64,000 bases of DNA, from positions 47 to 64,046 of the forward strand of contig JBFYWB010000111.1 in the NCBI GenBank assembly GCA_041299015.1, read 5' to 3'. Shown here piece after piece: positions 1 through 63,848 of this stretch; positions within the stretch are counted from its first letter, which is position 1; each line of letters opens with the position of its first letter. A program made the translations under genes and the position numbers. The stretch comes from Deltaproteobacteria bacterium. GTDB lineage: Bacteria > Desulfobacterota > Desulfobacteria > Desulfobacterales > SG8-13. The notes beneath the pieces were generated by a model. That model was not told the DNA's origin. It worked only from the letters and a program-made list of their open reading frames with translations, and did not search any database.

Positions 1-828
1 GTCCTCGCCCTTGACGGTTCTGGTCCGGTCTTCTCCGCTTTTAGCATGGCGATACCGGAAGGTGACCATGCCATCCCGGCAGTGCAGGATATCTTTTTCC
101 CGGATGACGCCCCGGTACAGGTAGCGGCCAAGATAGATCAGTGCCTCCTCGCCGTTGCCTGCGTCCTTGCAGTCAACCACCCACTGCTCGTGGCAATCAT
201 GGGGAACCGGCAGCTTTTCTTCGACCAGGGCCTGGAGCAGTTTAGCCCGGAAAACCTTGGCCAGTGCTTTGTGGCTGAAGAGATATTTCCCGGATTTTTC
301 CTTCCACAGCCTGGTTTTCAGGTTGATGATTGCTCCGGGCATGACCACATGGATATGGGGATGATAGTTTAGGGTTCTGGAATGGGTGCGGAGGATGGCG
401 ATGAATCCCGGTGATCCGCCGAGTTTTTTGTCGTTATTGGTGAAAGTTTTCAGGAGATCCTGCACCGCCATGAACATCAGGGCGTAGACGGTTTTCTGGT
501 GTTTCCATGCCAGATCCCGCAGCTGCCCGGGCAGGGTGAAGGTGATCAGGTAGTATTGACACGGCAGCCGTTTGTCAAGTTGGCTCTCCAACAACTGTTG
601 GCTCTCGTGGTTCTGGCAATGGGGGCAGTTTCTGGGGCCGCAGGAGTGGGGAAAATAGACCCGTTCGCCGCACTGGTGGTCCGAACAGCGGGCCAGCATG
701 TGCGGTCCATGCTCGTATCGGCATCGGGCCATGGACTCCAGAGCCTTGATATGGCCTGGAAGGAGATTTTTCTTGTAGGTGCAGAAGAAGCTGTCCCTGA
801 ACTTGTTGATGATCGTGGAGAGCAGCAT
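1..828 (-). CDS. IS91-family (Y2/HUH rolling-circle) transposase, N-terminal part; the ORF runs off the window.
   Basis: It is absent from the ORF track because it has no in-window stop. The minus-strand translation from ATG 828..826 reads MLLSTIINKFRDSFF..., then RCSDHQCGERVYFPHSCGPRNCPHCQNHES (Cys-rich Zn-binding domain), then LRTHSRTLNYHPHIHVVMPGA (HUH-type histidine motif). Confidence 0.8.
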   Translation of the reverse strand, partial: MLLSTIINKFRDSFFCTYKKNLLPGHIKALESMARCRYEHGPHMLARCSDHQCGERVYFPHSCGPRNCPHCQNHESQQLLESQLDKRLPCQYYLITFTLPGQLRDLAWKHQKTVYALMFMAVQDLLKTFTNNDKKLGGSPGFIAILRTHSRTLNYHPHIHVVMPGAIINLKTRLWKEKSGKYLFSHKALAKVFRAKLLQALVEEKLPVPHDCHEQWVVDCKDAGNGEEALIYLGRYLYRGVIREKDILHCRDGMVTFRYRHAKSGEDRTRTVKGED

Positions 829-25901: not shown

Positions 25902-27257
25902 TTAAGAGGCTTTGTCCAGCAGCCGGTCCTGGACTTCCGCGAGTTGCGCTGCGGAATCACACCCCAGATCGACGGCGGTCTGGAATTCTTTGCGGGCTTC
26001 CGTCAAGCGGTCGTCTTTCAGGTAAAGGCTGCCGAGGCGATGGTGATAGAGACCGTTGTTGGGAGCGAGTGCGACGCTGTGCCGGCAAAAAAGCGTTGCG
26101 ATATCGGCGTTTTTATCCATCGTGTGATACAGCCAGCCCAGGCCGGAGAGGGAAGCGGCGTCGTTGGCGTTGAGCCGCAGCGATTTTTTATAGGCCGTGA
26201 TGGCTTCGTCCCTTAAGTTGAGAGCGGCATAGCACTCCCCGAGAAGAGAAAAAACGGCGCTCGATTGCGGCTGCATGGCGGCGGCCGATTCGAGGTAGTA
26301 TCGACCTTTTTCAGGGTCGCCGTCTTCGAGGGAGATTCTGCCCAACTGCAATTTGACTTCGAAGAGAGTGTGGGGCCGATTGTCGGCTTCGAGCAGGTGC
26401 GTACGGGCCTTGTCGCGTTCCTTTAGGAGGAGTTGGACGAGGCCGGCATTGTAATGGGCCAGGGCCTCTTCGGCATCCAGGGTTATTGCCGCCTTAAACT
26501 GGGCCAGGGCGCTCGCGAATTCCCCGGTCACGCCATAACAAACGCCCAGGCTGTTGTGCAGGTTCGCGTTGGCCGGGTCGAGTGTCAGGGCTGTACTGTA
26601 CTCGTCGATGGCCTTCTGATACTCGCCTTGGTCGTAGAGCCGATCGCCGCTGATATTGAGGCTGATGGCATCAAAGGAGACCAAGCTGTCGGGACCGAAG
26701 AATTTTGCATGTTCGAGGGCCTTGCGGGCATTGGCGAGGATTTTGTCCTTGGAATAGTCGAGGGTAGGGAAGAAGGCCAGGCCGATCGTAACCGTGGGAC
26801 CGGCGCCCAGCTTTGTTTTGATCTCCGTTTTGATCTTCTCGAGCAGGTTCGGCGCCGCCGACGGGTTGCCGCCAGGCAGATAACATCCGAAGGTGGTTGA
26901 ATCGAGCAGCCCCCAGAGACCGGCCGTCGATCGGCAAGCCGTTTCGAGGGCGCCGGCGACAGCGGTTGGGAGGTTCGGTTCGGGTCCGACGGTTCCGCCT
27001 GCGACCGGGCAGGCGTCGATTTGGACCACAAACGCCGCAAATTCAGGGACTTCTTCCAGGCTGCTCATGGCGCGAACCAGGAGCGATTTGCCGCTGAGCA
27101 GGTGAGGATAGTTCAGCCGCAGCGCATCTGCTTTCTCATCCGGTTCGACCGCACCCGCCGATCGGGGGGCGGCGTCGGATCGGGCTTTTGAGAGGAGAAA
27201 GTTACGGGCGGCGTTGGTGTCGGGGGTCACTCGGTTCGGTTCGCGCGTCATTGCCAC
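25902..27257 (-). CDS. Degenerate GGDEF-like domain fused to TPR repeats.
   Basis: The N-terminal half is collinear with a GGDEF fold, but the signature is replaced (GLLDSTTFGCYLPG in place of GRxGGDEFxxLLPG). ARKALEHAKFFGPDSLVSFD resembles the usual ADxALYxAKxxGRNR end. The C-terminal half has about 6 TPR units. Confidence 0.7.
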   Translation of the reverse strand: MAMTREPNRVTPDTNAARNFLLSKARSDAAPRSAGAVEPDEKADALRLNYPHLLSGKSLLVRAMSSLEEVPEFAAFVVQIDACPVAGGTVGPEPNLPTAVAGALETACRSTAGLWGLLDSTTFGCYLPGGNPSAAPNLLEKIKTEIKTKLGAGPTVTIGLAFFPTLDYSKDKILANARKALEHAKFFGPDSLVSFDAISLNISGDRLYDQGEYQKAIDEYSTALTLDPANANLHNSLGVCYGVTGEFASALAQFKAAITLDAEEALAHYNAGLVQLLLKERDKARTHLLEADNRPHTLFEVKLQLGRISLEDGDPEKGRYYLESAAAMQPQSSAVFSLLGECYAALNLRDEAITAYKKSLRLNANDAASLSGLGWLYHTMDKNADIATLFCRHSVALAPNNGLYHHRLGSLYLKDDRLTEARKEFQTAVDLGCDSAAQLAEVQDRLLDKAS

Positions 27258-27271
27258 TCCTTGGTTCCTCC

Positions 27272-28687
27272 TCAGGTCAGTAGAGTTTCGAATGCGCTTC
27301 GGATGGTTTCCAAGTCGTCGTCCTGCAGGGTCCGCATGTCCATGATATACATGTCAGCCTCGATTCTGCCGATAATCGGGGGTGAATTCAGACGCAGACG
27401 TTTTTCGATCGTGTTGGCCGACAACCCGTCGATACGGACGCCCAGGCCCTTGCTGGGCAGTTCCAGCAACGGCAGCGAGCCGCCGCCGGGCCGCGAGACG
27501 ATATCCAGCAACCTGACGGTCAACCGGTTTGGCCCGGTGTTTTCCAGCAAAGTTTTCAGACATCCGGCTTTTGCTTCCAGGGTCGTGATCGGTTGCAGCA
27601 TCATGCGCAGGGTAGGAATCGCCTGCACCGCCTTGGCTTCATCCCGATACAGCCTCAGGGTGCTTTCCAGGGCCGCCAGGGTCAGCTTGTCGATCCGCAG
27701 CGCGCGCGTGATCGGGTTTTTCTTGATCCGGTCGATAACCGTCTTTTTCCCGATCATCAAACCGGCCTGGGGACCGCCGAGAAGCTTGTCGCCGCTGAAG
27801 GTGACGATGTCGGCTCCGGCCGCCGCCGATTCCTGCACCGTCGGCTCTTTGAGCAGTCCGTAACGCGAAAAGTCGATGAACGTGCCGCTGCCAAGATCCT
27901 CCATGACCGGAATCCGGTGTTTCCGGCCCAATTCGACGAGTTCCTTGAGGGAGACCTCGGCCGAAAATCCGACGACGCTGTAGTTGCTTTTATGAACTTT
28001 CAGCAGCAGGGCGGTCCGCTCGTCGATGGCGCTCTCGTAGTCCCGCAGGTGCGTGCGGTTGGTGGTTCCGACTTCGCAAAGCAAGCCCCCGCTTTTGGTC
28101 ATGACGTCCGGGATGCGGAAGGAGCCGCCGATTTCAACCAGTTCGCCCCGCGAGACGATGACCTTTTTACCGGCGGCCAGCGTCTCCAATGCGAGCAGGA
28201 CCGCCCCGGCGTTGTTGTTGACCACCATGGCCGACTCGGCGCCGCTGATTTCGCAGATGACATCCTCCACAAGGGTATAGCGGGAACCGCGACGGCCCTT
28301 GTCGAGGTCGAATTCGAGATTCGAATACCGGCGGCCGACCGTGCAAAGGTGATCGATGGCGGTTTCGGCCAGCAGCGAGCGGCCAAGATTGGTATGGATG
28401 ACGATTCCGGTGGCATTGACCGTTGTGCGCAGGTTCAGGGACAGCGATCGCCGGACCAAAGCCTTGACGTCGGTTATGACCGCCGTGTCGGCCAAAATAT
28501 CGTCGCTGCGCGCGGGGTCCTGCGCGATAATTTGCCGGCGACGGTCGCCGAGAACCGATCGAATCGAGCGGATGAGCACCGAGCGGGGGGCCCCTTCAAA
28601 AAACGGGTCGGATTTGGCGAGTTCGAGCACGCGGTCGACTCCCGGCAGATTCCGCAAGCCCTGTTTCTGATGCTGGTTGAGATTCAT
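27272..28687 (-). CDS. selA: L-seryl-tRNA(Sec) selenium transferase.
   Basis: MNLNQHQKQGLRNLPGVDRVLE..., VNATGIVIHTNLGRS, VNNNAGAVLLAL, SRGELVEIGGSFRIPDVM, KVHKSNY and FSGDKLLGGPQAG (PLP Lys). GGGAGA RBS before ATG 28687. Confidence 0.93.
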   Translation of the reverse strand: MNLNQHQKQGLRNLPGVDRVLELAKSDPFFEGAPRSVLIRSIRSVLGDRRRQIIAQDPARSDDILADTAVITDVKALVRRSLSLNLRTTVNATGIVIHTNLGRSLLAETAIDHLCTVGRRYSNLEFDLDKGRRGSRYTLVEDVICEISGAESAMVVNNNAGAVLLALETLAAGKKVIVSRGELVEIGGSFRIPDVMTKSGGLLCEVGTTNRTHLRDYESAIDERTALLLKVHKSNYSVVGFSAEVSLKELVELGRKHRIPVMEDLGSGTFIDFSRYGLLKEPTVQESAAAGADIVTFSGDKLLGGPQAGLMIGKKTVIDRIKKNPITRALRIDKLTLAALESTLRLYRDEAKAVQAIPTLRMMLQPITTLEAKAGCLKTLLENTGPNRLTVRLLDIVSRPGGGSLPLLELPSKGLGVRIDGLSANTIEKRLRLNSPPIIGRIEADMYIMDMRTLQDDDLETIRSAFETLLT

Positions 28688-28792
28688 TTCATCTCCCGGC
28701 AGACGTTCCGTTTTCACGTGGCGGGGGCGAATCAGTTGGTTTCAAACCGCATGCCCGCGACCGCCGCCGGAGGGAGACGGCCGCAAGAGTTA

Positions 28793-30145
28793 TCAGCCTC
28801 CGAACGCCGGGGTGGTTTGTGTTTCGACATCGAACAGGGTTTGCGGGATGAGATCGATGACTTCCGCGAGGTCGTCGGGCTGCAGACCGAGCCGGTGCAT
28901 TCGGTTTTCAATCGACCCGCTGCTCATCCCTTCAAGTTCGAGACCGGTATTGAATCTGGCCATGAGAAGATCGGCCAGGAAGACGATGTGCGCCAGTTCG
29001 GTATGCGGCAAGGATTTTTCGGGCTCGTGGTGATGGGCGATCGTGGTGCGTAAGGATTGCGGAAAAGACCACATTTCAGCCAGCTCGCGGCCGACCGCGG
29101 CGTGATCGGTACCGAAAATCTCCCTTTCGATTTTGATCGAGGACGCTTCCGCGCAATTCAATTTTCGGTAGAAGAGCGGATAGGCGGATGCAATGAACTG
29201 GTCGAGCACCACCTTGCCGATGTCGTGCAGCAACCCGGCCGTGTAGGCCGTCGACACCGGCACCTTACCGGTAAAATGGGCGATTTTTTCGGCGGTCAGC
29301 GCCGTGCCGACGGCGTGGTGAAACAGTCCGCCCATGCACAACGAATAGCCGTTGCCGGCGGCATCGAAAAATTCGTTGACCGCGGCCGAGATGATCATTC
29401 TGAAAAATAGGTTTTCACCGAGGAACACGAGCGCGTGGTCCAGCGATTCGATTCTGTTTGTCTTGGCAAACATCGCCGAGTTGCAGAGTTGAAGGGTTCG
29501 GGCGCTCAAGACCTGGTCCTTCTTTATTTCCGCGGCAATCGGTTGGATATCGTCGATGCCCGCGTCGATCATATGAAGGATTTTCAGAGCCACCTGCGGT
29601 ATCGGCTTGATCTTCTCCGTGGCCCGTTGGATTTCGGCCGGATCGGGCAATGGGCCGGATTGGTCGGCGACGTCCTTTGCCTGCCCCAGTGGTTCGATGC
29701 GAAAAGTCCAGTTTTCCATGTCGAGACGCAGACAACAGGTAAAGAAACCGCCGGTTTCCGAGTGGACGATCGGAATGTCTTCAGCGGCGAGAATCGATTC
29801 GACCACCTCGGCTGTGCGGCCGCCGATGTTGAGGTCCAAATCCGTCGCGTTCAGGGGGCCTACAAGCGCGCCGCCGGCAATGACCGCCGTCAGTTGTTCC
29901 CGGACGGCGCCGGCTTCATAAAGCGTCGTGAGAAAAAGGGGCATGCCGGTGCTGGCATAGCGGGCATCGGCCTGTTCCCGGCCGAAGCCCGCCGGCTCGG
30001 GCAGCAGCAGGTGAATCATTCCGCCGACGCCGCTTTTGGCATCGAACACGGCGACGCCCACGCAGGTCCCGAGAAAAGCCTGCAGCAAGACCGGTCGGGA
30101 GGGTCCCACAAAATAACCACCGGAAGGTATCGTCTGTTTTGGCAT
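28793..30145 (-). CDS. CheD-like deamidase domain fused to an HDOD domain.
   Basis: The N-terminal part reads LLQAFLGTCVGVAVFDAKSGVGGMIHLLLPEP...GGALVGP...IGGRTAEVV...ETGGFF, the CheD pattern with Cys and His retained. The C-terminal part reads IPQVALKILHMID...IAAEIKKDQVLSARTLQLCNSAMF...LHDIGKVVL (HDOD). Confidence 0.8.
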   Translation of the reverse strand: MPKQTIPSGGYFVGPSRPVLLQAFLGTCVGVAVFDAKSGVGGMIHLLLPEPAGFGREQADARYASTGMPLFLTTLYEAGAVREQLTAVIAGGALVGPLNATDLDLNIGGRTAEVVESILAAEDIPIVHSETGGFFTCCLRLDMENWTFRIEPLGQAKDVADQSGPLPDPAEIQRATEKIKPIPQVALKILHMIDAGIDDIQPIAAEIKKDQVLSARTLQLCNSAMFAKTNRIESLDHALVFLGENLFFRMIISAAVNEFFDAAGNGYSLCMGGLFHHAVGTALTAEKIAHFTGKVPVSTAYTAGLLHDIGKVVLDQFIASAYPLFYRKLNCAEASSIKIEREIFGTDHAAVGRELAEMWSFPQSLRTTIAHHHEPEKSLPHTELAHIVFLADLLMARFNTGLELEGMSSGSIENRMHRLGLQPDDLAEVIDLIPQTLFDVETQTTPAFGG

Positions 30146-54630: not shown

Positions 54631-55885
54631 GTGTTGTCGGGACACCCCATGACCCTGTTTAGAGGATCGGTACCTCGCGTTAGCACATTGATCAGAAAAG
54701 GGCGATCGTTCAATTTTGCCGGTGCCGGTAAATGGACCGTCTATTTTGTTCTGATAGGCATCTGCGCCGGTTTAGGTTCGATCGTATTCCATTATTTAAC
54801 TCAGATTGGCCTTCACTTTTTCCGTGCTGGCCTTCGTGCTGGCCGGCTTAGGGGTATTTTACGTCAAGGCCTTTTACGGCACCATCGCGCTGTTCAGGAA
54901 AATAAATATTCCCAGTTACCTCAAACCAGCCCTTGGCGGTCTGTTGACCGGAATCATCGGTTTCTTCCTGCCGCAGACCCTGGCCTTCGGCTATGGTTTT
55001 GCTCAACAGGCGCTCGAGAATCAATTGACCCTCCCATTTCTACTGAGCCTGGCGATCGGAAAAGTGCTGACGACTTCCTTTTCGATCGGCTCAGGCGGCA
55101 GCGGCGGGGTTTTCGGCCCCTCGATCGTGATTGGCGGGGCTATGGGCGGTGTCATCGGAAAAACTTTCCACCATTTCATGCCGACGGTGGTGACCGAGCC
55201 GGGCGCCTTCGTGGTCGTCGGCATGGCCGGTTTTTTTACGGCCGTCTCCAATACGCCGATTTCCACGATCATCTTCGTCAGTGAGATGACAAATTCCTAC
55301 CACTTGCTGCTGCCGAGCTTGGCCGTCTGTTCGGTCACCTACCTCGTCGCACGCCGATGGACCATATTTCACCGCCAGGTCAAAAGCAGGGTCGATTCAC
55401 CGGCCCACGCCGGAGAGTTCTTCGTCGACCTTCTCCAGGCGATCCGCGTGGGCGATTTGATGGATCACGTTAAAAAAGTCCAACTGATCCCGCAGGACAT
55501 GACCTTTGCGGATTTTAAAAATTACTTTTCCAGGACCGAGCAGCATTATTTTCCGGTCATGGACCAAAACCAGCGCCTGGTGAGTATTTTTTCGATCAAT
55601 GATGTCCGAGGAGTCCTGTTTTCCCAGGAGATCGAGGAATTGGTGGTTATGAAGGACATCGGCAGCTCCGACATCATCTTCGCCACCCCAGCGGAAGACC
55701 TGAACTCCGTGCTGCAGAAGTTCACCATCAAGAATATCGACAGCCTGCCGGTGGTGGCGGACGATGACCACGGTAAATTGATCGGGATGCTGGGCAGAAG
55801 GGAAGTGATCTCATTCTACAATCGGAAGGTCCAGGGGATCAAGCGCAGCCACCGGCAGTCGGAAGAACCCGTCTCGGACGCCTGA
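54631..55885 (+). pseudogene. ClC-type chloride channel with C-terminal CBS pair, carrying an internal deletion plus a frameshift.
   Basis: Frame 1 (54631..) gives the ClC helix-B-like segment KWTVYFVLIGICAGLGSIVFHYLTQIGLHFF and then nonsense. Frame 2 (54806..55885) resumes at a region equivalent to the middle of the ClC TM domain (…GSGGSGGVFGPS…, SNTPISTIIFVSEMTNSY) followed by two CBS domains. The GSGIP and GREGP filter segments (about 150 aa) are absent. Confidence 0.7.
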
Positions 55886-56108: not shown

Positions 56109-56858
56109 TCATTCATAGCCGACACCCATCAGGAACAATCCGTGCGGGGGCGCCGTGGCACCGGCACGTTTACGCTCTTTTGACAGCAAGATCTCGCCGA
56201 AATTCGCCGTACCGAACTTACCGCTGCCGACCGACACCAGGGTTCCGACGATATTTCGCACCATAAAACGTAAGAAACCGTCCGCTTCGATGTCGAACGC
56301 CAAGAATTCGGCCCTCTCCTCCCTGCTAAAAAAGGCCCTGAAGACCTGGCGAACCGCGTGTGACCGCGGGCTGCCGGCGCCCTCGAACGCCGTGAAGTCG
56401 TGACGGCCGACCAGAATGGCGGCGGCCCTGCGCATGGCGTCGAGATCGAGTGGACGGCGCAGGTGCCAGGCGTACTGGCGTCCGACGGCCACCCTCAGGG
56501 GATGGTTCAAGATGCGGTAGCGATAGGTTTTACGCCTGGCATCGAAGCGGGCGTGAAACGTCGGTTCGGCCCGGAGGCAGTCGCGAATGACGATGGCATC
56601 CGGCAGAAGACTGTTGAGGGCTTTCTGGATGGTTCCGGGATCCAAACGCGTGTGGCATTTAAAACTGGCCACTTGACCTAAGGCGTGAACCCCCGCGTCG
56701 GTCCGTCCGGAGCCGATAAGCGCGATTTTCTGTCGAATCACGGTATTAAGGGCAATTTCGATTTCCTCCTGAACGGTCCTACACCCTTTTTGCCGCTGCC
56801 AACCGTGGAAGTCGCCCCCGTCGTATTCAATGGTCATCTTGAAATTGCTAAGCTGCAT
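56109..56858 (-). CDS. truA: tRNA pseudouridine(38-40) synthase.
   Basis: MQLSNFKMTIEYDGGDFHGWQRQ and GSGRTDAGVHALGQV (catalytic Asp). The start is ambiguous (TTG 56876, ATG 56858 or ATG 56837). Confidence 0.9.
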   Translation of the reverse strand: MQLSNFKMTIEYDGGDFHGWQRQKGCRTVQEEIEIALNTVIRQKIALIGSGRTDAGVHALGQVASFKCHTRLDPGTIQKALNSLLPDAIVIRDCLRAEPTFHARFDARRKTYRYRILNHPLRVAVGRQYAWHLRRPLDLDAMRRAAAILVGRHDFTAFEGAGSPRSHAVRQVFRAFFSREERAEFLAFDIEADGFLRFMVRNIVGTLVSVGSGKFGTANFGEILLSKERKRAGATAPPHGLFLMGVGYE

Positions 56859-56886
56859 GGCGGTCACCGGAAGCAACGATCAAAAC

Positions 56887-57069
56887 TCACAACCTGTCGC
56901 ACCTTATGTCGGCCAGGGCGTCGTCAAAAAATTCATCCAGGGCCTCTGAATAGGTCTGGATCCGGTGGGTGGTATTGCACGACCTGCAATACAGGTGAAC
57001 TCTTTTTCATGATTTCTGCAGTTCAAGGCGATGTCCACACTTTCGGCAGAAAACGGATAACGGTTTCAT
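56887..57069 (-). CDS. Small dual-CxxC zinc-ribbon selenoprotein candidate (60 codons, in-frame TGA = Sec at 57009..57007).
   Basis: An AAGGAG RBS lies 7 nt before ATG 57069. The ORF reads MKPLSVFCRKCGHRLELQKS-TGA-KRVHLYCRSCNTTHRIQTYSEALDEFFDDALADIRCDRL-TGA. The second CxxC needed for a 4-Cys ribbon lies after the first TGA, and a strong hairpin follows 14 nt after it. Not in the ORF track. Confidence 0.65.
56972..56992 (-). promoter_or_regulatory. SECIS-like hairpin inside the small dual-CxxC gene.
   Basis: The mRNA reads GUAUUGCA-GGUCG-UGCAAUAC, a perfect 8-bp stem with a 5-nt loop containing GGU. It begins 14 nt 3' of the UGA. Confidence 0.6.
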
Positions 57070-57424
57070 CTTCGGTCTCCTTTGCGCCAAACGAGAAAGC
57101 GGCTTCGGGCGAATCGTATGGGAATCCTGAGCGGCTGTCAATCCGGACGGCTGACCCGCAAAGCCGTGCCGTCGAAACTTGCGCGCTTAGCACACAACGA
57201 CCCGTTCCTCAAGAACTATTGCCTAACGTTCCCGCCGGAAGAAGGGTGTTTTTTTCGTTGTGGTGCAGAAAAAAATCGGTTATTTTTAAGCTACCGTAAT
57301 CACGAGAATTCAACTTCGCGGCGGGTTCGCGGTAAAGTTTTGACGGCGCCGAAGGCTGTGGGCTTTTCAGTTATTTCCCGATTCGCAGCTGTCGGAGATG
57401 TCCGATCGGGTAGGTGACAGTGAC

Positions 57425-58612
57425 ATGCAAGGGATGTTTATCATCGACGGATTCCTGGCGGCCGGTGTGGCTGCCGGACTCAAAAAAAACGGCGGGAAGG
57501 ACCTGGGGCTGATTTTTTCGATTGTTCCGGCAGCCGCAGCCGGTGTTTTCACGTGCAACCGGGTTCAAGCAGCACCGGTTATCCTGGACCGCAAGAGAAT
57601 CGCGACCGGCAAAGGCCGCGCCATCGTCGTCAACAGCGGCAATGCCAACTGCTGCACCGGCGAGCGGGGGCTGCAGAGCGCCTTGGCCATGGCCAAAGCT
57701 GTCGCCGACGGACTCGGCCTCTCCGATGAGCAGGTGCTGGTTGCCTCCACCGGTGTGATCGGCGAACAACTACCGATCCAGAAAATCAAGACGGCCGTGC
57801 CGGCGCTCCTTGACTCTCTGAAGCCCGAGGGGCTCTCCGATCTTGCCGAGGCGATCATGACCACCGACACGGTGCCCAAGCTGGTTGCCGTGAAAGCTCG
57901 GCTCGACGGAAAAGACTTTCGCCTTGCGGCCGCCGCCAAGGGCGCCGGCATGATCCGGCCTGACATGGCGACCATGCTCTGCTTTGTCCTCAGCGATATC
58001 GATCTGCCGGCGACGGTCATGCAGACGATGCTCAAGACCGCCGTCGATCGGTCCTTCAACCGTATCACCGTGGACGGTGACACGAGCACCAACGATACCG
58101 TGCTGTTCCTGGCCAACGGGCTCTCCGGTGTAACGGCCGAGACGCCCGAAGCGCGGCAGGTGGTCCAGGGCGTGCTGGACGATGCCCTGCTGCAGCTGGC
58201 ACGCCTCTGCGTCAAGGACGGTGAGGGTGCCACCAAGCTGGTCGAGGTCCATGTGCGCGGGGCGCCCTCCGACCCGGAGGCCCGCAACGTGGCCGACACG
58301 GTGGCCAATTCCAGTTTGGTGAAAACCGCGCTTTTCGGCCAGGACGCCAACTGGGGAAGAATACTGGCGGCGGTCGGACGGGCGGGTGTTCCGCTTGATC
58401 CGGATCGGGTCGACATCTATTTTGACACCGTACTGATGGTAAAAGACGGGGTCGGCCGGGGGAAAGCGGTCGAAGCCTTGGCAACGAGCGTTCTCAAAAA
58501 ACCGGAGTTCGCGATAACGATCGACCTGAAAATGGCCAATGGAAATGCATCGGTCCTGACCTGTGACTTCTCGATCGATTATGTCAAAATCAATGCCGAT
58601 TACAGGAGCTGA
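57425..58612 (+). CDS. argJ: Bifunctional glutamate N-acetyltransferase / amino-acid acetyltransferase.
   Basis: GFLAAGVAAGLKKNGGKDLGLI, NSGNANCCTG, MATMLCFVLSD (autoproteolysis ATML site) and DGDTSTNDT. The start is at ATG 57425 or 57434. Confidence 0.92.
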   Translation: MQGMFIIDGFLAAGVAAGLKKNGGKDLGLIFSIVPAAAAGVFTCNRVQAAPVILDRKRIATGKGRAIVVNSGNANCCTGERGLQSALAMAKAVADGLGLSDEQVLVASTGVIGEQLPIQKIKTAVPALLDSLKPEGLSDLAEAIMTTDTVPKLVAVKARLDGKDFRLAAAAKGAGMIRPDMATMLCFVLSDIDLPATVMQTMLKTAVDRSFNRITVDGDTSTNDTVLFLANGLSGVTAETPEARQVVQGVLDDALLQLARLCVKDGEGATKLVEVHVRGAPSDPEARNVADTVANSSLVKTALFGQDANWGRILAAVGRAGVPLDPDRVDIYFDTVLMVKDGVGRGKAVEALATSVLKKPEFAITIDLKMANGNASVLTCDFSIDYVKINADYRS

Positions 58613-63289: not shown

Positions 63290-63365
63290 GCCAGAGTAGC
63301 TCAGTCGGTAGAGCAGCTGATTTGTAATCAGCGGGTCGCGGGTTCGACTCCTGTCTCTGGCTCCA
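63290..63365 (+). tRNA. tRNA-Thr (anticodon UGU).
   Basis: Acceptor GCCAGAG/CTCTGGC, D-arm TAGCTCAGTCGGTAGAGC, anticodon loop TTTGTAA, T-loop GGTTCGACTCC, encoded CCA. Confidence 0.95.
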
Positions 63366-63376
63366 GTCATGATCGA

Positions 63377-63461
63377 GGTGGGGTTCCCGAGCGGCCAAAG
63401 GGAACAGACTGTAAATCTGTCGGCGAAGCCTTCGGAGGTTCGAATCCTCCCCCCACCACCA
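63377..63461 (+). tRNA. tRNA-Tyr (anticodon GUA).
   Basis: Acceptor GGTGGGG/CCCCACC, anticodon loop CTGTAAA, long variable arm, T-arm GGAGGTTCGAATCCTCC, encoded CCA. Confidence 0.95.
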
Positions 63462-63631
63462 ACCTTAATGCAAGTTGGATGTAGGAGATTTCGATTCCGC
63501 AATCGAAGTCGTTAACAAACTACACGGCTTCCCGCATCGGTTTCACGCGCAAGCCTTTTTGGAGGCTAAGTAAGTCACCATTTCCGTTGTGCGTTGGGGC
63601 GATATGGACCTAACGGTGATTGGATTATCGG

Positions 63632-63707
63632 GCGGGCGTAGCTCAGTTGGTAGAGCTTCAGCCTTCCAAGCTGAATGTCGCGAGTTCGAATCTCGTCGCC
63701 CGCTCCA
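63632..63707 (+). tRNA. tRNA-Gly (anticodon UCC).
   Basis: Acceptor GCGGGCG/CGCCCGC, anticodon loop CTTCCAA, T-loop GTTCGAATC, encoded CCA. Confidence 0.95.
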
Positions 63708-63771
63708 CCCCGACAAGCCGGCAATCCGAGAGAACCGCCGACAGCGAAGCATGTCGCGGCGCGCCCTTCGA

Positions 63772-63848
63772 GCCCACGTAGCTCAGTAGGTAGAGCGCTT
63801 CCTTGGTAAGGAAGAGGTTCACCGGTTCGATTCCGGTCGTGGGCTCCA
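63772..63848 (+). tRNA. tRNA-Thr (anticodon GGU).
   Basis: Acceptor GCCCACG/CGTGGGC, anticodon loop TTGGTAA, T-arm CCGGTTCGATTCCGG, encoded CCA. Confidence 0.95.

What the first reader, a model, noticed from the sequence alone, without database searches (positions are those of the whole stretch)
56887..57069. Unannotated 60-codon dual-CxxC zinc-ribbon gene with an in-frame TGA and a strong SECIS-like hairpin
Upstream of truA the minus strand has no ORF of 60 aa or more, yet ATG 57069 is preceded by a textbook AAGGAG. It opens MKPLSVFCRKCGHRLELQKS, then TGA (57009..57007), then the same frame continues KRVHLYCRSCNTTHRIQTYSEALDEFFDDALADIRCDRL to a second TGA at 56889..56887.
- Stopping at the first TGA leaves only one CxxC. 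Reading through completes a four-Cys ribbon (C8, C11, C27, C30).
- Exactly 14 nt after the TGA there is a perfect 8-bp hairpin, GUAUUGCA-GGUCG-UGCAAUAC (56992..56972), with G/U in the apical loop. This is the geometry expected for a bacterial SECIS.
- selA is 28 kb away in the same window.

I recall that RefSeq has a family named for small dual-CXXC (seleno)proteins, but I cannot verify membership from here. In this sequence the Sec lies between the two CxxC motifs rather than inside one, which is unusual for redox selenoproteins. This leaves its chemistry open.
Basis: partly seen in the sequence, partly recalled or inferred. Interest (0 to 1): 0.72.

Follow-up and report, generated by a model that had tools for sequence, protein, structure and literature searches.

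The report
Missed small selenoprotein gene, known family
This is a real 60-codon gene for a tiny selenocysteine-containing metal-knuckle protein that automatic gene callers miss because of its in-frame UGA; it belongs to a family predicted in 2007 (OS_HP3 / NCBIfam NF041197) whose function is still unknown.

Summary
The minus strand at 57069..56887 carries AAGGAG, ATG, 20 codons, TGA, 39 more in-frame codons and a stop. An 8-bp hairpin starts 14 nt after the TGA.

The read-through peptide scores 62.7 bits (cutoff 40) against NCBIfam NF041197, "dual CXXC motif small (seleno)protein". This family is OS_HP3 of Zhang & Gladyshev 2007.

- All 25 related loci I fetched (23 distinct coding sequences including the window, down to 33% pairwise identity) keep TGA in the same column, with no indels and an invariant C-terminal RCDR motif.
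- No full-length Cys form appeared in two very large protein collections.
- The hairpin meets all four published bacterial SECIS criteria. It is paired in 99.2% of cells, shows compensatory changes at three pairs, and resembles the E. coli fdhF SECIS apex.
- Its upper stem is made of the two Cys codons of the second CxxC.
- selA is in the window.
- The downstream half has no start codon of its own.
- The sequence is identical in three independent assemblies, and nothing is called there.

Verdict: a genuine selenoprotein gene and a new member of a known, uncharacterised family. Modestly new points are the apparently obligate Sec, the SECIS written into the CxxC codons, and a conserved operon-like link to truA.

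The parts
57113..57141 (-). Sigma-70-like promoter: TTGACA (57141..57136), 17-nt spacer, TACGAT (57118..57113)
   Evidence: 10 of 12 consensus match, against 0.4 expected sites in shuffles. Both hexamers are conserved in the eight close-clade sequences aligned.
57077..57082 (-). Shine-Dalgarno AAGGAG, 7 nt before the ATG
   Evidence: Read directly from the sequence. Purine-rich GGAGG/GGAAGG occupies the same place in relatives.
56887..57069 (-). Selenoprotein coding sequence: 60 codons plus stop. ATG 57069, Sec-UGA as codon 21, terminal TGA 56889..56887.
   Evidence: Translation. NF041197 hit at 62.7 bits against a 40-bit cutoff. Same architecture in 25 related loci. Identical in three independent assemblies.
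57037..57048 (-). First CxxC knuckle (C8, C11; CRKCG)
   Evidence: Invariant Cys columns. Codon usage is mixed UGC/UGU.
57007..57009 (-). In-frame TGA, predicted selenocysteine codon (U21), preceded by Q-K-S
   Evidence: TGA in this column in 23 of 23 distinct sequences. R or K at position -2 in 21 of 23.
56972..56992 (-). SECIS hairpin: 5' arm 56992..56985, loop GGUCG 56984..56980, 3' arm 56979..56972. It starts 14 nt after the UGA, and the loop begins 22 nt after it.
   Evidence: Fold. Alignment: 99.2% of cells paired, three pairs with compensatory change, 0 of 500 shuffles as good, slid controls 16-57%. RNAalifold predicts the same helix. All four bSECIS criteria from PMC13188914 are met. 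The apex matches the verified E. coli fdhF SECIS.
56977..56988 (-). Second CxxC knuckle (C28, C31; CRSC). Its codons UGC-A...UGC-A form the upper four base pairs of the SECIS stem.
   Evidence: Cys codons here are UGC in 45 of 46 cases, and the one UGU keeps a G-U pair. At C8, C11 and C57 the ratio is 48 UGC to 21 UGU.
56890..56919 (-). Conserved acidic C-terminal tail, ALADIRCDRL, with invariant C57 (56901..56899), D58 and R59
   Evidence: Invariant columns L52, C57, D58 and R59. This half carries a mean net charge of -4.3, against +5.2 for the N-terminal half.
56109..56876 (-). truA (tRNA pseudouridine 38-40 synthase), 10-28 nt downstream on the same strand. Probable start is ATG 56858. Likely co-transcribed.
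   Evidence: TIGR00071, 193 bits. No terminator-like site between the two genes on this strand. truA lies downstream of the small gene in 22 of 23 informative loci.
27272..28717 (-). selA (selenocysteine synthase), evidence that this organism decodes UGA as Sec
   Evidence: TIGR00474 equivalog, 603 bits against a cutoff of 268.

Best explanation
Window 57069..56887 (minus strand) is a genuine, expressed gene for a 60-residue selenoprotein of the OS_HP3 / NCBIfam NF041197 family, 'dual CXXC motif small (seleno)protein'.

How the UGA is decoded.
- Transcription starts from its own conserved sigma-70-type promoter and probably continues into truA.
- The ribosome starts at ATG 57069 behind AAGGAG.
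- At codon 21 (UGA, 57009..57007) the mRNA hairpin at 56992..56972 acts as a bacterial SECIS. It recruits SelB carrying Sec-tRNA(Sec), so selenocysteine is inserted instead of termination.
- The upper stem of the SECIS is built from the two UGC-A Cys codons of the second CxxC motif. The same 21 nt therefore encode a metal knuckle and the recoding signal, which explains the fixed x6 spacing between Sec and that CxxC.

The product (inferred, not shown).
- A basic rubredoxin- or zinc-ribbon-type knuckle domain, with C8, C11, C28 and C31 binding one metal ion.
- Sec21 sits in the basic turn between the two knuckles.
- An acidic C-terminal tail ends in the invariant RCDR motif.
- My best guess is that the tail folds back so that Cys57 and Sec21 form a reversible selenenylsulfide, or a shared ligand site. 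The protein would then be a small redox or chalcogen/metal-handling module.

What is shown: the gene, the conserved UGA, the conserved and covarying hairpin, family membership, and the truA linkage.
What is inferred: SelB-dependent Sec insertion, metal binding, the Sec21-Cys57 pairing, and co-transcription with truA.
For: - Sequence features are as described.
- NF041197 scores 62.7 bits against a 40-bit cutoff, and 55.1 bits with X at the Sec position.
- The family is listed as a selenoprotein family (OS_HP3) in PMC1976440 and PMC13188914.
- All 25 related loci from Desulfobacterales, Desulfohalobiaceae and other MAGs and metagenomes keep TGA at the same column, with no indels in the core from the first CxxC to the stop (N-terminal leaders vary in length) and an invariant C-terminus, down to 33% pairwise identity.
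- Third-codon-position substitutions dominate on both sides of the TGA.
- The window has no ATG, GTG or TTG in frame between codon 1 and codon 60. The conserved C-terminal half can therefore only be translated through the UGA.
- Hairpin: 99.2% of cells paired, three pairs with double-sided changes, slid controls 16-57%. RNAalifold agrees independently. A loop G is invariant. All four published bSECIS criteria are met. The apex UUGCA-GGUCG-UGCA compares with fdhF UUGCA-GGUC-UGCA.
- Cys codons in the stem are fixed as UGC.
- selA is in the window.
- A conserved promoter lies upstream.
- The sequence is identical in three independent assemblies.
- TGA is also the normal stop codon of this gene in most homologues, so UGA is not globally reassigned.
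Against: - No experimental evidence of Se incorporation for any family member was found in the searchable literature.
- No Cys-containing homologue was found. The usual Sec/Cys-pair criterion therefore cannot be applied.
- selB, selC and selD are not in the window (one search finds no tRNA-Sec).
- The single-sequence hairpin energy is unremarkable (z = -0.05).
- The compensatory changes fall into only about three clades, so independent events are few. The stem lies in coding sequence, which constrains it as well.
- The functional part (metal site, Sec21-Cys57 pair) rests on sequence pattern only. Zn-ribbon Pfam models score just below threshold (24.0 against 25). Structure prediction could not be run.
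Confidence: 0.9

Rival explanations
1. Translation stops at UGA 57009..57007 and yields only a 20-residue micropeptide or leader. The conserved downstream sequence and hairpin would be an untranslated regulatory leader for truA, for example an attenuator or stability element.
For: UGA is a normal stop in these genomes and terminates this very gene in most homologues. The hairpin energy alone is ordinary. truA follows within 10-28 nt.
Against: The 39 downstream codons have no stop and no indel in 23 distinct sequences. They show third-position substitution bias and amino-acid-level invariants C28, C31, L52, C57, D58 and R59. The hairpin has no U-tract and was not reported as a terminator on this strand. 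In many relatives a 305-aa transporter gene separates it from truA, which does not fit a truA leader.
Confidence: 0.04
2. The UGA is read through, but by something other than Sec-tRNA(Sec). Near-cognate Trp or Cys insertion, or a local recoding event, would give a non-selenium 60-residue protein.
For: No direct proof of Se incorporation exists. One database protein (P0023) shows W in this column.
Against: P0023 is most simply a TGA translated under genetic code 4 by a gene caller, though its contig could not be retrieved. The hairpin fits the SelB-type SECIS model on all four criteria and mimics the fdhF apex. selA is present. If Cys or Trp served as well, sense-codon variants should exist, yet none was found in 5.8 billion or 1.84 billion proteins.
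Confidence: 0.04
3. The locus is a pseudogene, a sequencing error, or a chance ORF. The real feature would be the 204-aa plus-strand ORF at 56685..57299, or nothing at all.
For: A 204-aa ORF on the opposite strand covers the region. Public gene calls place no gene here.
Against: The sequence, including the TGA, is identical in three independent assemblies. The TGA is conserved in 25 other loci. The plus-strand ORF has no Pfam match, and no antisense ORF of 100 aa or more overlaps the homologous gene in L002.
Confidence: 0.01
4. Alternative function within the main explanation: the small ORF is mainly a selenium-sensing translational leader. Whether ribosomes pass the UGA, which depends on the Sec-tRNA(Sec) supply, would set translation of the coupled downstream gene, truA or the Mem_trans transporter.
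For: Operon-like spacing is tight. Stop and start overlap by 1 nt in L015/L016 and L023/L024, and the gap in the window is 10-28 nt. The linkage to truA is nearly universal.
Against: The strong amino-acid conservation of the C-terminal motif and of all five Cys points to selection on the protein itself. In L007 no truA lies within 3 kb downstream.
Confidence: 0.07

Closest known systems
OS_HP3 / NCBIfam NF041197 'dual CXXC motif small (seleno)protein' (Zhang & Gladyshev 2007, PMC1976440; listed in PMC13188914, PMC9312934 and PMC12013277, the last of which reports an OS_HP3 gene in Desulfosarcina widdelii PP31)
   Same: Scores above the curated HMM cutoff. About 60 aa, two CxxC motifs, Sec between them preceded by a basic residue at -2, a SECIS-like hairpin after the UGA, a Desulfobacterota host, and no Cys homologues (the 2007 paper also lists none).
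   Different: Nothing essential. The window has K-S-U where the review gives the motif as RxU. Its closest relatives carry an extra Mem_trans gene before truA. It is a member of this family.
E. coli fdhF SECIS (SelB-binding mRNA hairpin)
   Same: It lies immediately 3' of the Sec-UGA inside the coding sequence. The apical element is nearly identical: fdhF UUGCA-GGUC-UGCA against the window's UUGCA-GGUCG-UGCA, with the fdhF sequence verified in 5,413 genomes. The loop starts with GGU.
   Different: The loop is one base longer and lies 4 nt further from the UGA (loop GGU at +26..28, against +22..24 in fdhF). There is no bulged U in the stem. Here the stem is formed by the two Cys codons of a CxxC motif. 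SelB binding was not tested.
Zinc-ribbon / rubredoxin-knuckle small proteins (RNA polymerase Rpb9/RPC10 N-ribbon, Rpb12, YfgJ; Pfam PF07191)
   Same: Two CxxC knuckles 16 residues apart in a stretch of about 35 basic residues. Weak profile matches: PDB 5fj8_I at E = 0.0036, 3j0k_L at E = 0.003, and PF07191 at 24.0 bits.
   Different: All matches are below the curated thresholds. None of these proteins has a Sec or Cys in the inter-knuckle turn, or the acidic RCDR tail. The metal (Zn or Fe) is unknown.
MsrB1 (SelR) and Rdx-family (SelW/T/H) selenoproteins. The MsrB1 comparison rests on my own knowledge.
   Same: MsrB1 combines a structural Zn(Cys)4 site made of two CxxC motifs with a separate catalytic Sec and a resolving Cys. 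That is the same logic I propose here. The Rdx models give near-threshold hits on residues 27-57 (PF10262, 22.0 against 22.6 bits).
   Different: There is no significant sequence similarity. At 60 aa the protein is too small for either fold. In the Rdx family Sec lies inside CxxU, whereas here Sec is outside both CxxC motifs. This is an analogy only, not membership.

Membership tests
NCBIfam NF041197 dual CXXC motif small (seleno)protein (= OS_HP3) | HMM score at or above the curated cutoff of 40 bits over the full model | tested here: met
   62.7 bits with U replaced by C, and 55.1 bits with X. Residues 8-60 cover model positions 1-53 of 53.
NCBIfam NF041197 dual CXXC motif small (seleno)protein (= OS_HP3) | Small protein (about 60 aa) with two CxxC motifs and a Sec (UGA) or Cys between them | tested here: met
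   The layout is CxxC-x9-U-x6-CxxC-x24-RCDRx. 25 related loci have identical spacing.
NCBIfam NF041197 dual CXXC motif small (seleno)protein (= OS_HP3) | Sec motif given as 'RxU' in the review table (PMC13188914) | tested here: inconclusive
   The window reads K-S-U. The -2 residue is R or K in 21 of 23 distinct sequences and H in 2. This is a conservative variant of the listed motif.
Bacterial SelB/SECIS-dependent selenoprotein gene | In-frame UGA conserved among homologues, with coding conservation on both sides | tested here: met
   TGA in 23 of 23 distinct sequences. Third-position substitution bias on both sides, and no stops or indels downstream.
Bacterial SelB/SECIS-dependent selenoprotein gene | bSECIS consensus: 3-9 nt loop on a 4-16 bp stem; G in the first two loop positions; 16-37 nt from UGA to loop; MFE of -7.5 kcal/mol or lower (PMC13188914, Fig. 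2 legend) | tested here: met
   5-nt loop GGUCG on an 8-bp stem, 22-nt spacing, and -9.6 to -9.7 kcal/mol. bSECISearch itself was not run.
Bacterial SelB/SECIS-dependent selenoprotein gene | Hairpin conserved in homologues with compensatory substitutions | tested here: met
   99.2% of cells paired, three pairs with double-sided changes, 0 of 500 shuffles as good, slid controls 16-57%. RNAalifold gives the same helix. Caveat: there are few independent clades, and the stem is coding.
Bacterial SelB/SECIS-dependent selenoprotein gene | Sec machinery in the genome (selA, selB, selC, selD) | tested here: inconclusive
   selA is present (TIGR00474, 603 bits). No tRNA-Sec is found in the window. selB and selD were not found among the ORFs I scanned. 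The rest of the genome is not available.
Bacterial SelB/SECIS-dependent selenoprotein gene | Cys-containing homologues aligned with Sec (the usual prediction criterion, not strictly defining) | tested here: not met
   Only 32-44 aa C-terminal fragments were found in the 5.8-billion and 1.84-billion protein collections. No full-length Cys form appeared. The 2007 paper also lists none.
Bacterial SelB/SECIS-dependent selenoprotein gene | Selenium actually incorporated at the UGA position | not testable with these tools
   This needs 75Se labelling or mass spectrometry. No such data for this family were found in the papers searched.
Four-Cys zinc ribbon | A curated zinc-ribbon model above its gathering threshold | tested here: not met
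   The best is PF07191 Zn_ribbon_6 at 24.0 bits against a cutoff of 25. TIGR02605 scores 15.9 against 31.3. PDB profile hits reach only E of about 0.003. The pattern fits, but membership is not proven.
Four-Cys zinc ribbon | Ribbon fold with the four Cys around one metal | not testable with these tools
No full-length homologue was available to submit.
Rdx (SelW/SelT/SelH) family | CxxU redox motif in a thioredoxin-like fold, with a model score above threshold | tested here: not met
   PF10262 scores 22.0 against 22.6, and TIGR02174 scores 14.1 against 34.2. Sec is not inside a CxxC/CxxU motif, and the protein is shorter than the domain.

The most novel reading that the evidence does not exclude
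The family could be an obligately selenium-dependent, basic metal-knuckle protein that works together with TruA on tRNA, or that makes truA or transporter expression depend on selenium. Sec21 in the basic turn and Cys57 in the acidic tail would form the reactive pair. That would be a new kind of link between selenium status and tRNA modification. It would also be a rare case of a SECIS written into the codons of a metal-binding motif.
Probability: 0.12. Interest if true: 0.6.

Novelty: new member of a known kind. Interest (0 to 1): 0.3.

Why it matters
**For annotation.** This is a clean example of a real gene that ORF-based callers miss. Nothing is called here in the organism's own assemblies. 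In relatives, only a 35-39 aa C-terminal stub is called, sometimes under the correct family name. The locus is a useful test case for selenoprotein-aware annotation. deep-Sep is reported to have missed a member of this same family (PMC12013277).

**For biology.** The family has been known since 2007 but remains uncharacterised. The comparative data here add three testable points.
1. No Cys form is detectable, so selenium seems indispensable. This is unusual, since nearly all selenoprotein families have Cys versions.
2. The SECIS upper stem is made from the second CxxC's own codons, which is a compact dual code.
3. The gene is almost always followed by truA.

None of these overturns current understanding.

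Tried and rejected
- A single-sequence protein search with U replaced by C found nothing, because of the word-index limit.
No full-length Cys homologue was available to submit instead. The Sec21-Cys57 proximity idea is therefore untested.
- An exact look-up of the protein written with U was rejected as not a protein sequence.
- Rfam found nothing at 56800..57450, even at E up to 10. I did not check whether Rfam holds a bacterial SECIS model, so this negative may say little.
- The contig encoding P0023, which has W at the Sec column, could not be retrieved.
- A scan of the window for other long frames interrupted by one TGA gave only adjacent same-frame genes or noise. No second selenoprotein was found.
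- The 204-aa plus-strand ORF over the locus was considered and rejected. It has no family match, and no antisense ORF of 100 aa or more overlaps the gene in L002.
- Rdx/SelW-like and generic Zn-ribbon memberships were considered, but all scores were below threshold.
- The L025 row in the promoter alignment used wrong coordinates and should be ignored.
- My first regular expression for the codon analysis had a wrong spacer length. It was fixed.

Full report
**1. Observation**

On the minus strand, AAGGAG (57082..57077) lies 7 nt before ATG 57069. Translating 57069..56887 gives MKPLSVFCRKCGHRLELQKS-TGA-KRVHLYCRSCNTTHRIQTYSEALDEFFDDALADIRCDRL-TGA. The in-frame TGA is at 57009..57007. The perfect 8-bp hairpin GUAUUGCA-GGUCG-UGCAAUAC occupies 56992..56972, 14 nt after the TGA. 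No minus-strand ORF of 60 aa or more lies between truA (56109..56876) and argJ (57398..58612). selA is at 27272..28717 (TIGR00474, 603 bits).

- Counting Sec as residue 21, the second knuckle is C28/C31.
- There is a fifth Cys, C57, which turns out to be invariant.
- The hairpin is not exceptional on energy alone (z = -0.05 against shuffles). Significance has to come from comparison with homologues.

**2. Family**

With U replaced by C, the peptide scores 62.7 bits against NCBIfam NF041197.2, 'dual CXXC motif small (seleno)protein'. The curated cutoff is 40 bits, and the score with X is 55.1. Residues 8-60 cover the whole model.

A 2026 review equates NF041197 with 'hypothetical protein OS_HP3' and gives its Sec motif as RxU. 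OS_HP3 was predicted by Zhang & Gladyshev in 2007 from the Olavius algarvensis symbiont metagenome. That paper lists two TGA-containing members, no Cys homologue and a SECIS-like hairpin. The family is also reported in cultured Desulfosarcina, where the deep-Sep predictor missed it. I found no experimental work on it.

**3. Homologues**

Scans of genome and metagenome contigs, plus contigs encoding fragment hits, gave 25 related loci. Counting the window, these make 23 distinct coding sequences, down to 33% pairwise identity.
- Every one has CxxC-x9-TGA-x6-CxxC-x24-[RS]CDRx-stop.
- There is no indel in that core, from the first CxxC to the stop; the N-terminal leaders vary in length.
- The invariant residues are C8, C11, U21, C28, C31, L52, C57, D58 and R59.
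- Substitutions concentrate at third codon positions on both sides of the TGA.
- In the window, the only in-frame ATG, GTG or TTG codons are codon 1 and codon 60. The conserved C-terminal half can therefore only be made by reading through the UGA.
- Most homologues, like the window, end in TGA, so UGA is not globally reassigned.

Two profile searches of 5.8 billion proteins returned only 32-37 aa fragments. An exhaustive phmmer search of 1.84 billion representatives returned only 35-44 aa fragments. These are the C-terminal half, called from whatever start codon happens to be available. No search returned a full-length Cys form. One fragment has W at the Sec column. This is most simply a TGA translated under code 4, but I could not verify it.

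**4. The hairpin as a SECIS**

In all homologues a hairpin starts at the same register, 14 nt after the UGA. On a 16-sequence alignment:
- 99.2% of cells are paired.
- Three pairs show double-sided changes: UA/CG, AU/GC/UA and UA/CG.
- 0 of 500 shuffles reach the observed pairing or covariation score.
- Sliding the 3' arm by 1-3 columns drops pairing to 16-57%.
- RNAalifold predicts the same helix independently.
- The second loop base is an invariant G.

All four published bacterial SECIS criteria are met: loop of 3-9 nt, stem of 4-16 bp, G in the first two loop positions, 16-37 nt from UGA to loop, and MFE of -7.5 kcal/mol or lower. Here the values are a 5-nt loop, an 8-bp stem, GG, 22 nt and about -9.6 kcal/mol.

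The apex UUGCA-GGUCG-UGCA is nearly the E. coli fdhF apex UUGCA-GGUC-UGCA. I verified the fdhF sequence against 5,413 genomes.

The upper stem consists of the two Cys codons of the second CxxC (UGC-A...UGC-A, a self-complementary tetramer). Those codons are UGC in 45 of 46 cases, and the single UGU keeps a G-U pair. At C8, C11 and C57, UGU makes up 30% of codons. This is RNA-level selection laid over protein-level selection, and it explains the rigid Sec-to-CxxC spacing.

Caveats: the sequences fall into about three clades, so independent compensatory events are few. The stem is coding, so part of its conservation comes from the protein.

**5. Expression context**

A sigma-70-like promoter (TTGACA, 17 nt, TACGAT; 57141..57113) scores 10 of 12. 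Both hexamers are conserved across the close clade.

truA follows on the same strand after 10-28 nt, with no terminator-like site between them. truA lies downstream of the small gene in 22 of 23 loci that have enough sequence to judge. The arrangement varies:
- sometimes with a 1-nt stop/start overlap;
- sometimes with a 305-aa Mem_trans transporter gene in between (or a 72-aa ORF in L014, or an unidentified gap of about 0.9 kb in L012);
- only L007 lacks truA downstream.

Divergent argJ upstream is shared with L002 and with L023-L025, but not by the more distant clades, where a Cofac_haem_bdg gene sits upstream. The truA linkage therefore outlasts the rest of the neighbourhood. All loci are from Desulfobacterota-type organisms, so inherited gene order cannot be excluded.

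**6. Not an error, and truly unannotated**

The 183-nt coding sequence and its 301-nt surroundings are identical in three independent assemblies from different sequencing runs. In those assemblies the gene calls go straight from truA to argJ, leaving a 540-nt gap. NCBI records for relatives carry the family name on 35-39 aa stubs, or call them hypothetical.

**7. Mechanism**

*Shown:* a conserved UGA-containing reading frame, a conserved and covarying SECIS-type hairpin, selA in the genome, and family membership.

*Inferred from the established bacterial Sec pathway:* SelB carrying Sec-tRNA(Sec) binds the hairpin and inserts Sec at codon 21.

*The protein (inference only):*
- Residues 5-38 are basic (mean family charge +5.2). 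They resemble zinc-ribbon or rubredoxin knuckles only weakly. PF07191 scores 24.0 against a 25-bit cutoff, and RPC10 and Rpb12 ribbons reach E of about 0.003.
- In those alignments the Sec falls in the turn between the two knuckles, flanked by R or K.
- Residues 39-60 are acidic (mean -4.3) and end in the invariant RCDR.
- I therefore propose a metal(Cys)4 scaffold that presents Sec21. The acidic tail would dock on the basic turn, so that Cys57 can form a selenenylsulfide or share a ligand site with Sec21.
- MsrB1 (Zn(Cys)4 plus a separate Sec and resolving Cys) is an analogy from my own knowledge, not a relative.

I put about 0.3 on this functional picture and 0.9 on the gene being a true selenoprotein gene.

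**8. Rivals**

| Rival | Probability | Main evidence against |
|---|---|---|
| Termination at the UGA, with an untranslated truA leader downstream | 0.04 | Protein-level conservation downstream of the UGA |
| Read-through by something other than Sec | 0.04 | SECIS fit, selA, and no sense-codon variants |
| Pseudogene, sequencing error, or the antisense 204-aa ORF | 0.01 | Replicate assemblies, 25 homologues, no family match |
| Selenium-sensing leader role for the coupled downstream gene | 0.07 | Protein conservation; may be an add-on role rather than the main one |

**9. Verdict**

The locus is a genuine but routinely missed member of a selenoprotein family that was predicted in 2007 and has a curated NCBIfam model.

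Novelty: a new member of a known kind.

Points that go beyond what I found in the literature:
- the apparent absence of any Cys form;
- the SECIS built from the CxxC codons;
- the conserved truA linkage;
- the conserved charge dipole with invariant Cys57.

Interest: 0.3.

Noticed in passing
window 54631..55885 (+): The ClC/CBS chloride-channel gene convergent with truA is a short form. The 359-aa ORF matches only positions 165-346 of Pfam Voltage_CLC, plus two CBS domains. An overlapping 217-aa ORF in another frame has a membrane-like start but no family hit. Independent assemblies call the same 353-aa product, whereas relative L025 has a ClC of at least 616 aa. This looks like an N-terminal deletion or a truncated paralogue rather than an assembly error.
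   Followed up: partly
P0002, P0019-P0021, P0001 (relatives): NCBI records annotate only 35-39 aa C-terminal fragments of this family. Some carry the correct name 'dual CXXC motif small (seleno)protein' and others 'hypothetical protein'. The UGA-spanning full-length product is systematically missing from public protein sets.
   Followed up: yes
P0023: A 44-aa database protein reads MKRTWQQVNLYCRSC..., with Trp exactly at the Sec column and a variant C-terminus, IPCNRL. This is probably a TGA translated under genetic code 4 by a gene caller. Its contig could not be retrieved.
   Followed up: partly
L002 3187..4104, L015 1586..2503, L025 3118..4035: In the window's closest relatives and in one distant clade, a 305-aa Mem_trans (PF03547, AEC-type transporter) gene sits between the small selenoprotein gene and truA. 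It often starts within 0-4 nt of the small gene's stop. The window lacks it entirely, with only 10-28 nt between the two genes.
   Followed up: partly
window 25902..30145 (-): selA (27272..28717) is not flanked by selB. Its neighbours are a TPR-repeat protein (25902..27257) and a CheD-like/HDIG fusion protein (28793..30145). No tRNA-Sec is found anywhere in the window.
   Followed up: partly
window 63290..63848 (+): A cluster of four tRNA genes: Thr-TGT, Tyr-GTA, Gly-TCC and Thr-GGT. This is an ordinary arrangement and is unrelated to the finding.
   Followed up: no
window 56685..57299 (+): A 204-aa ORF runs antisense across the truA start, the small gene and its promoter. It has no Pfam match, and no antisense ORF of 100 aa or more overlaps the homologous gene in relative L002. 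A naive longest-ORF caller could pick it and mask the true gene.
   Followed up: yes
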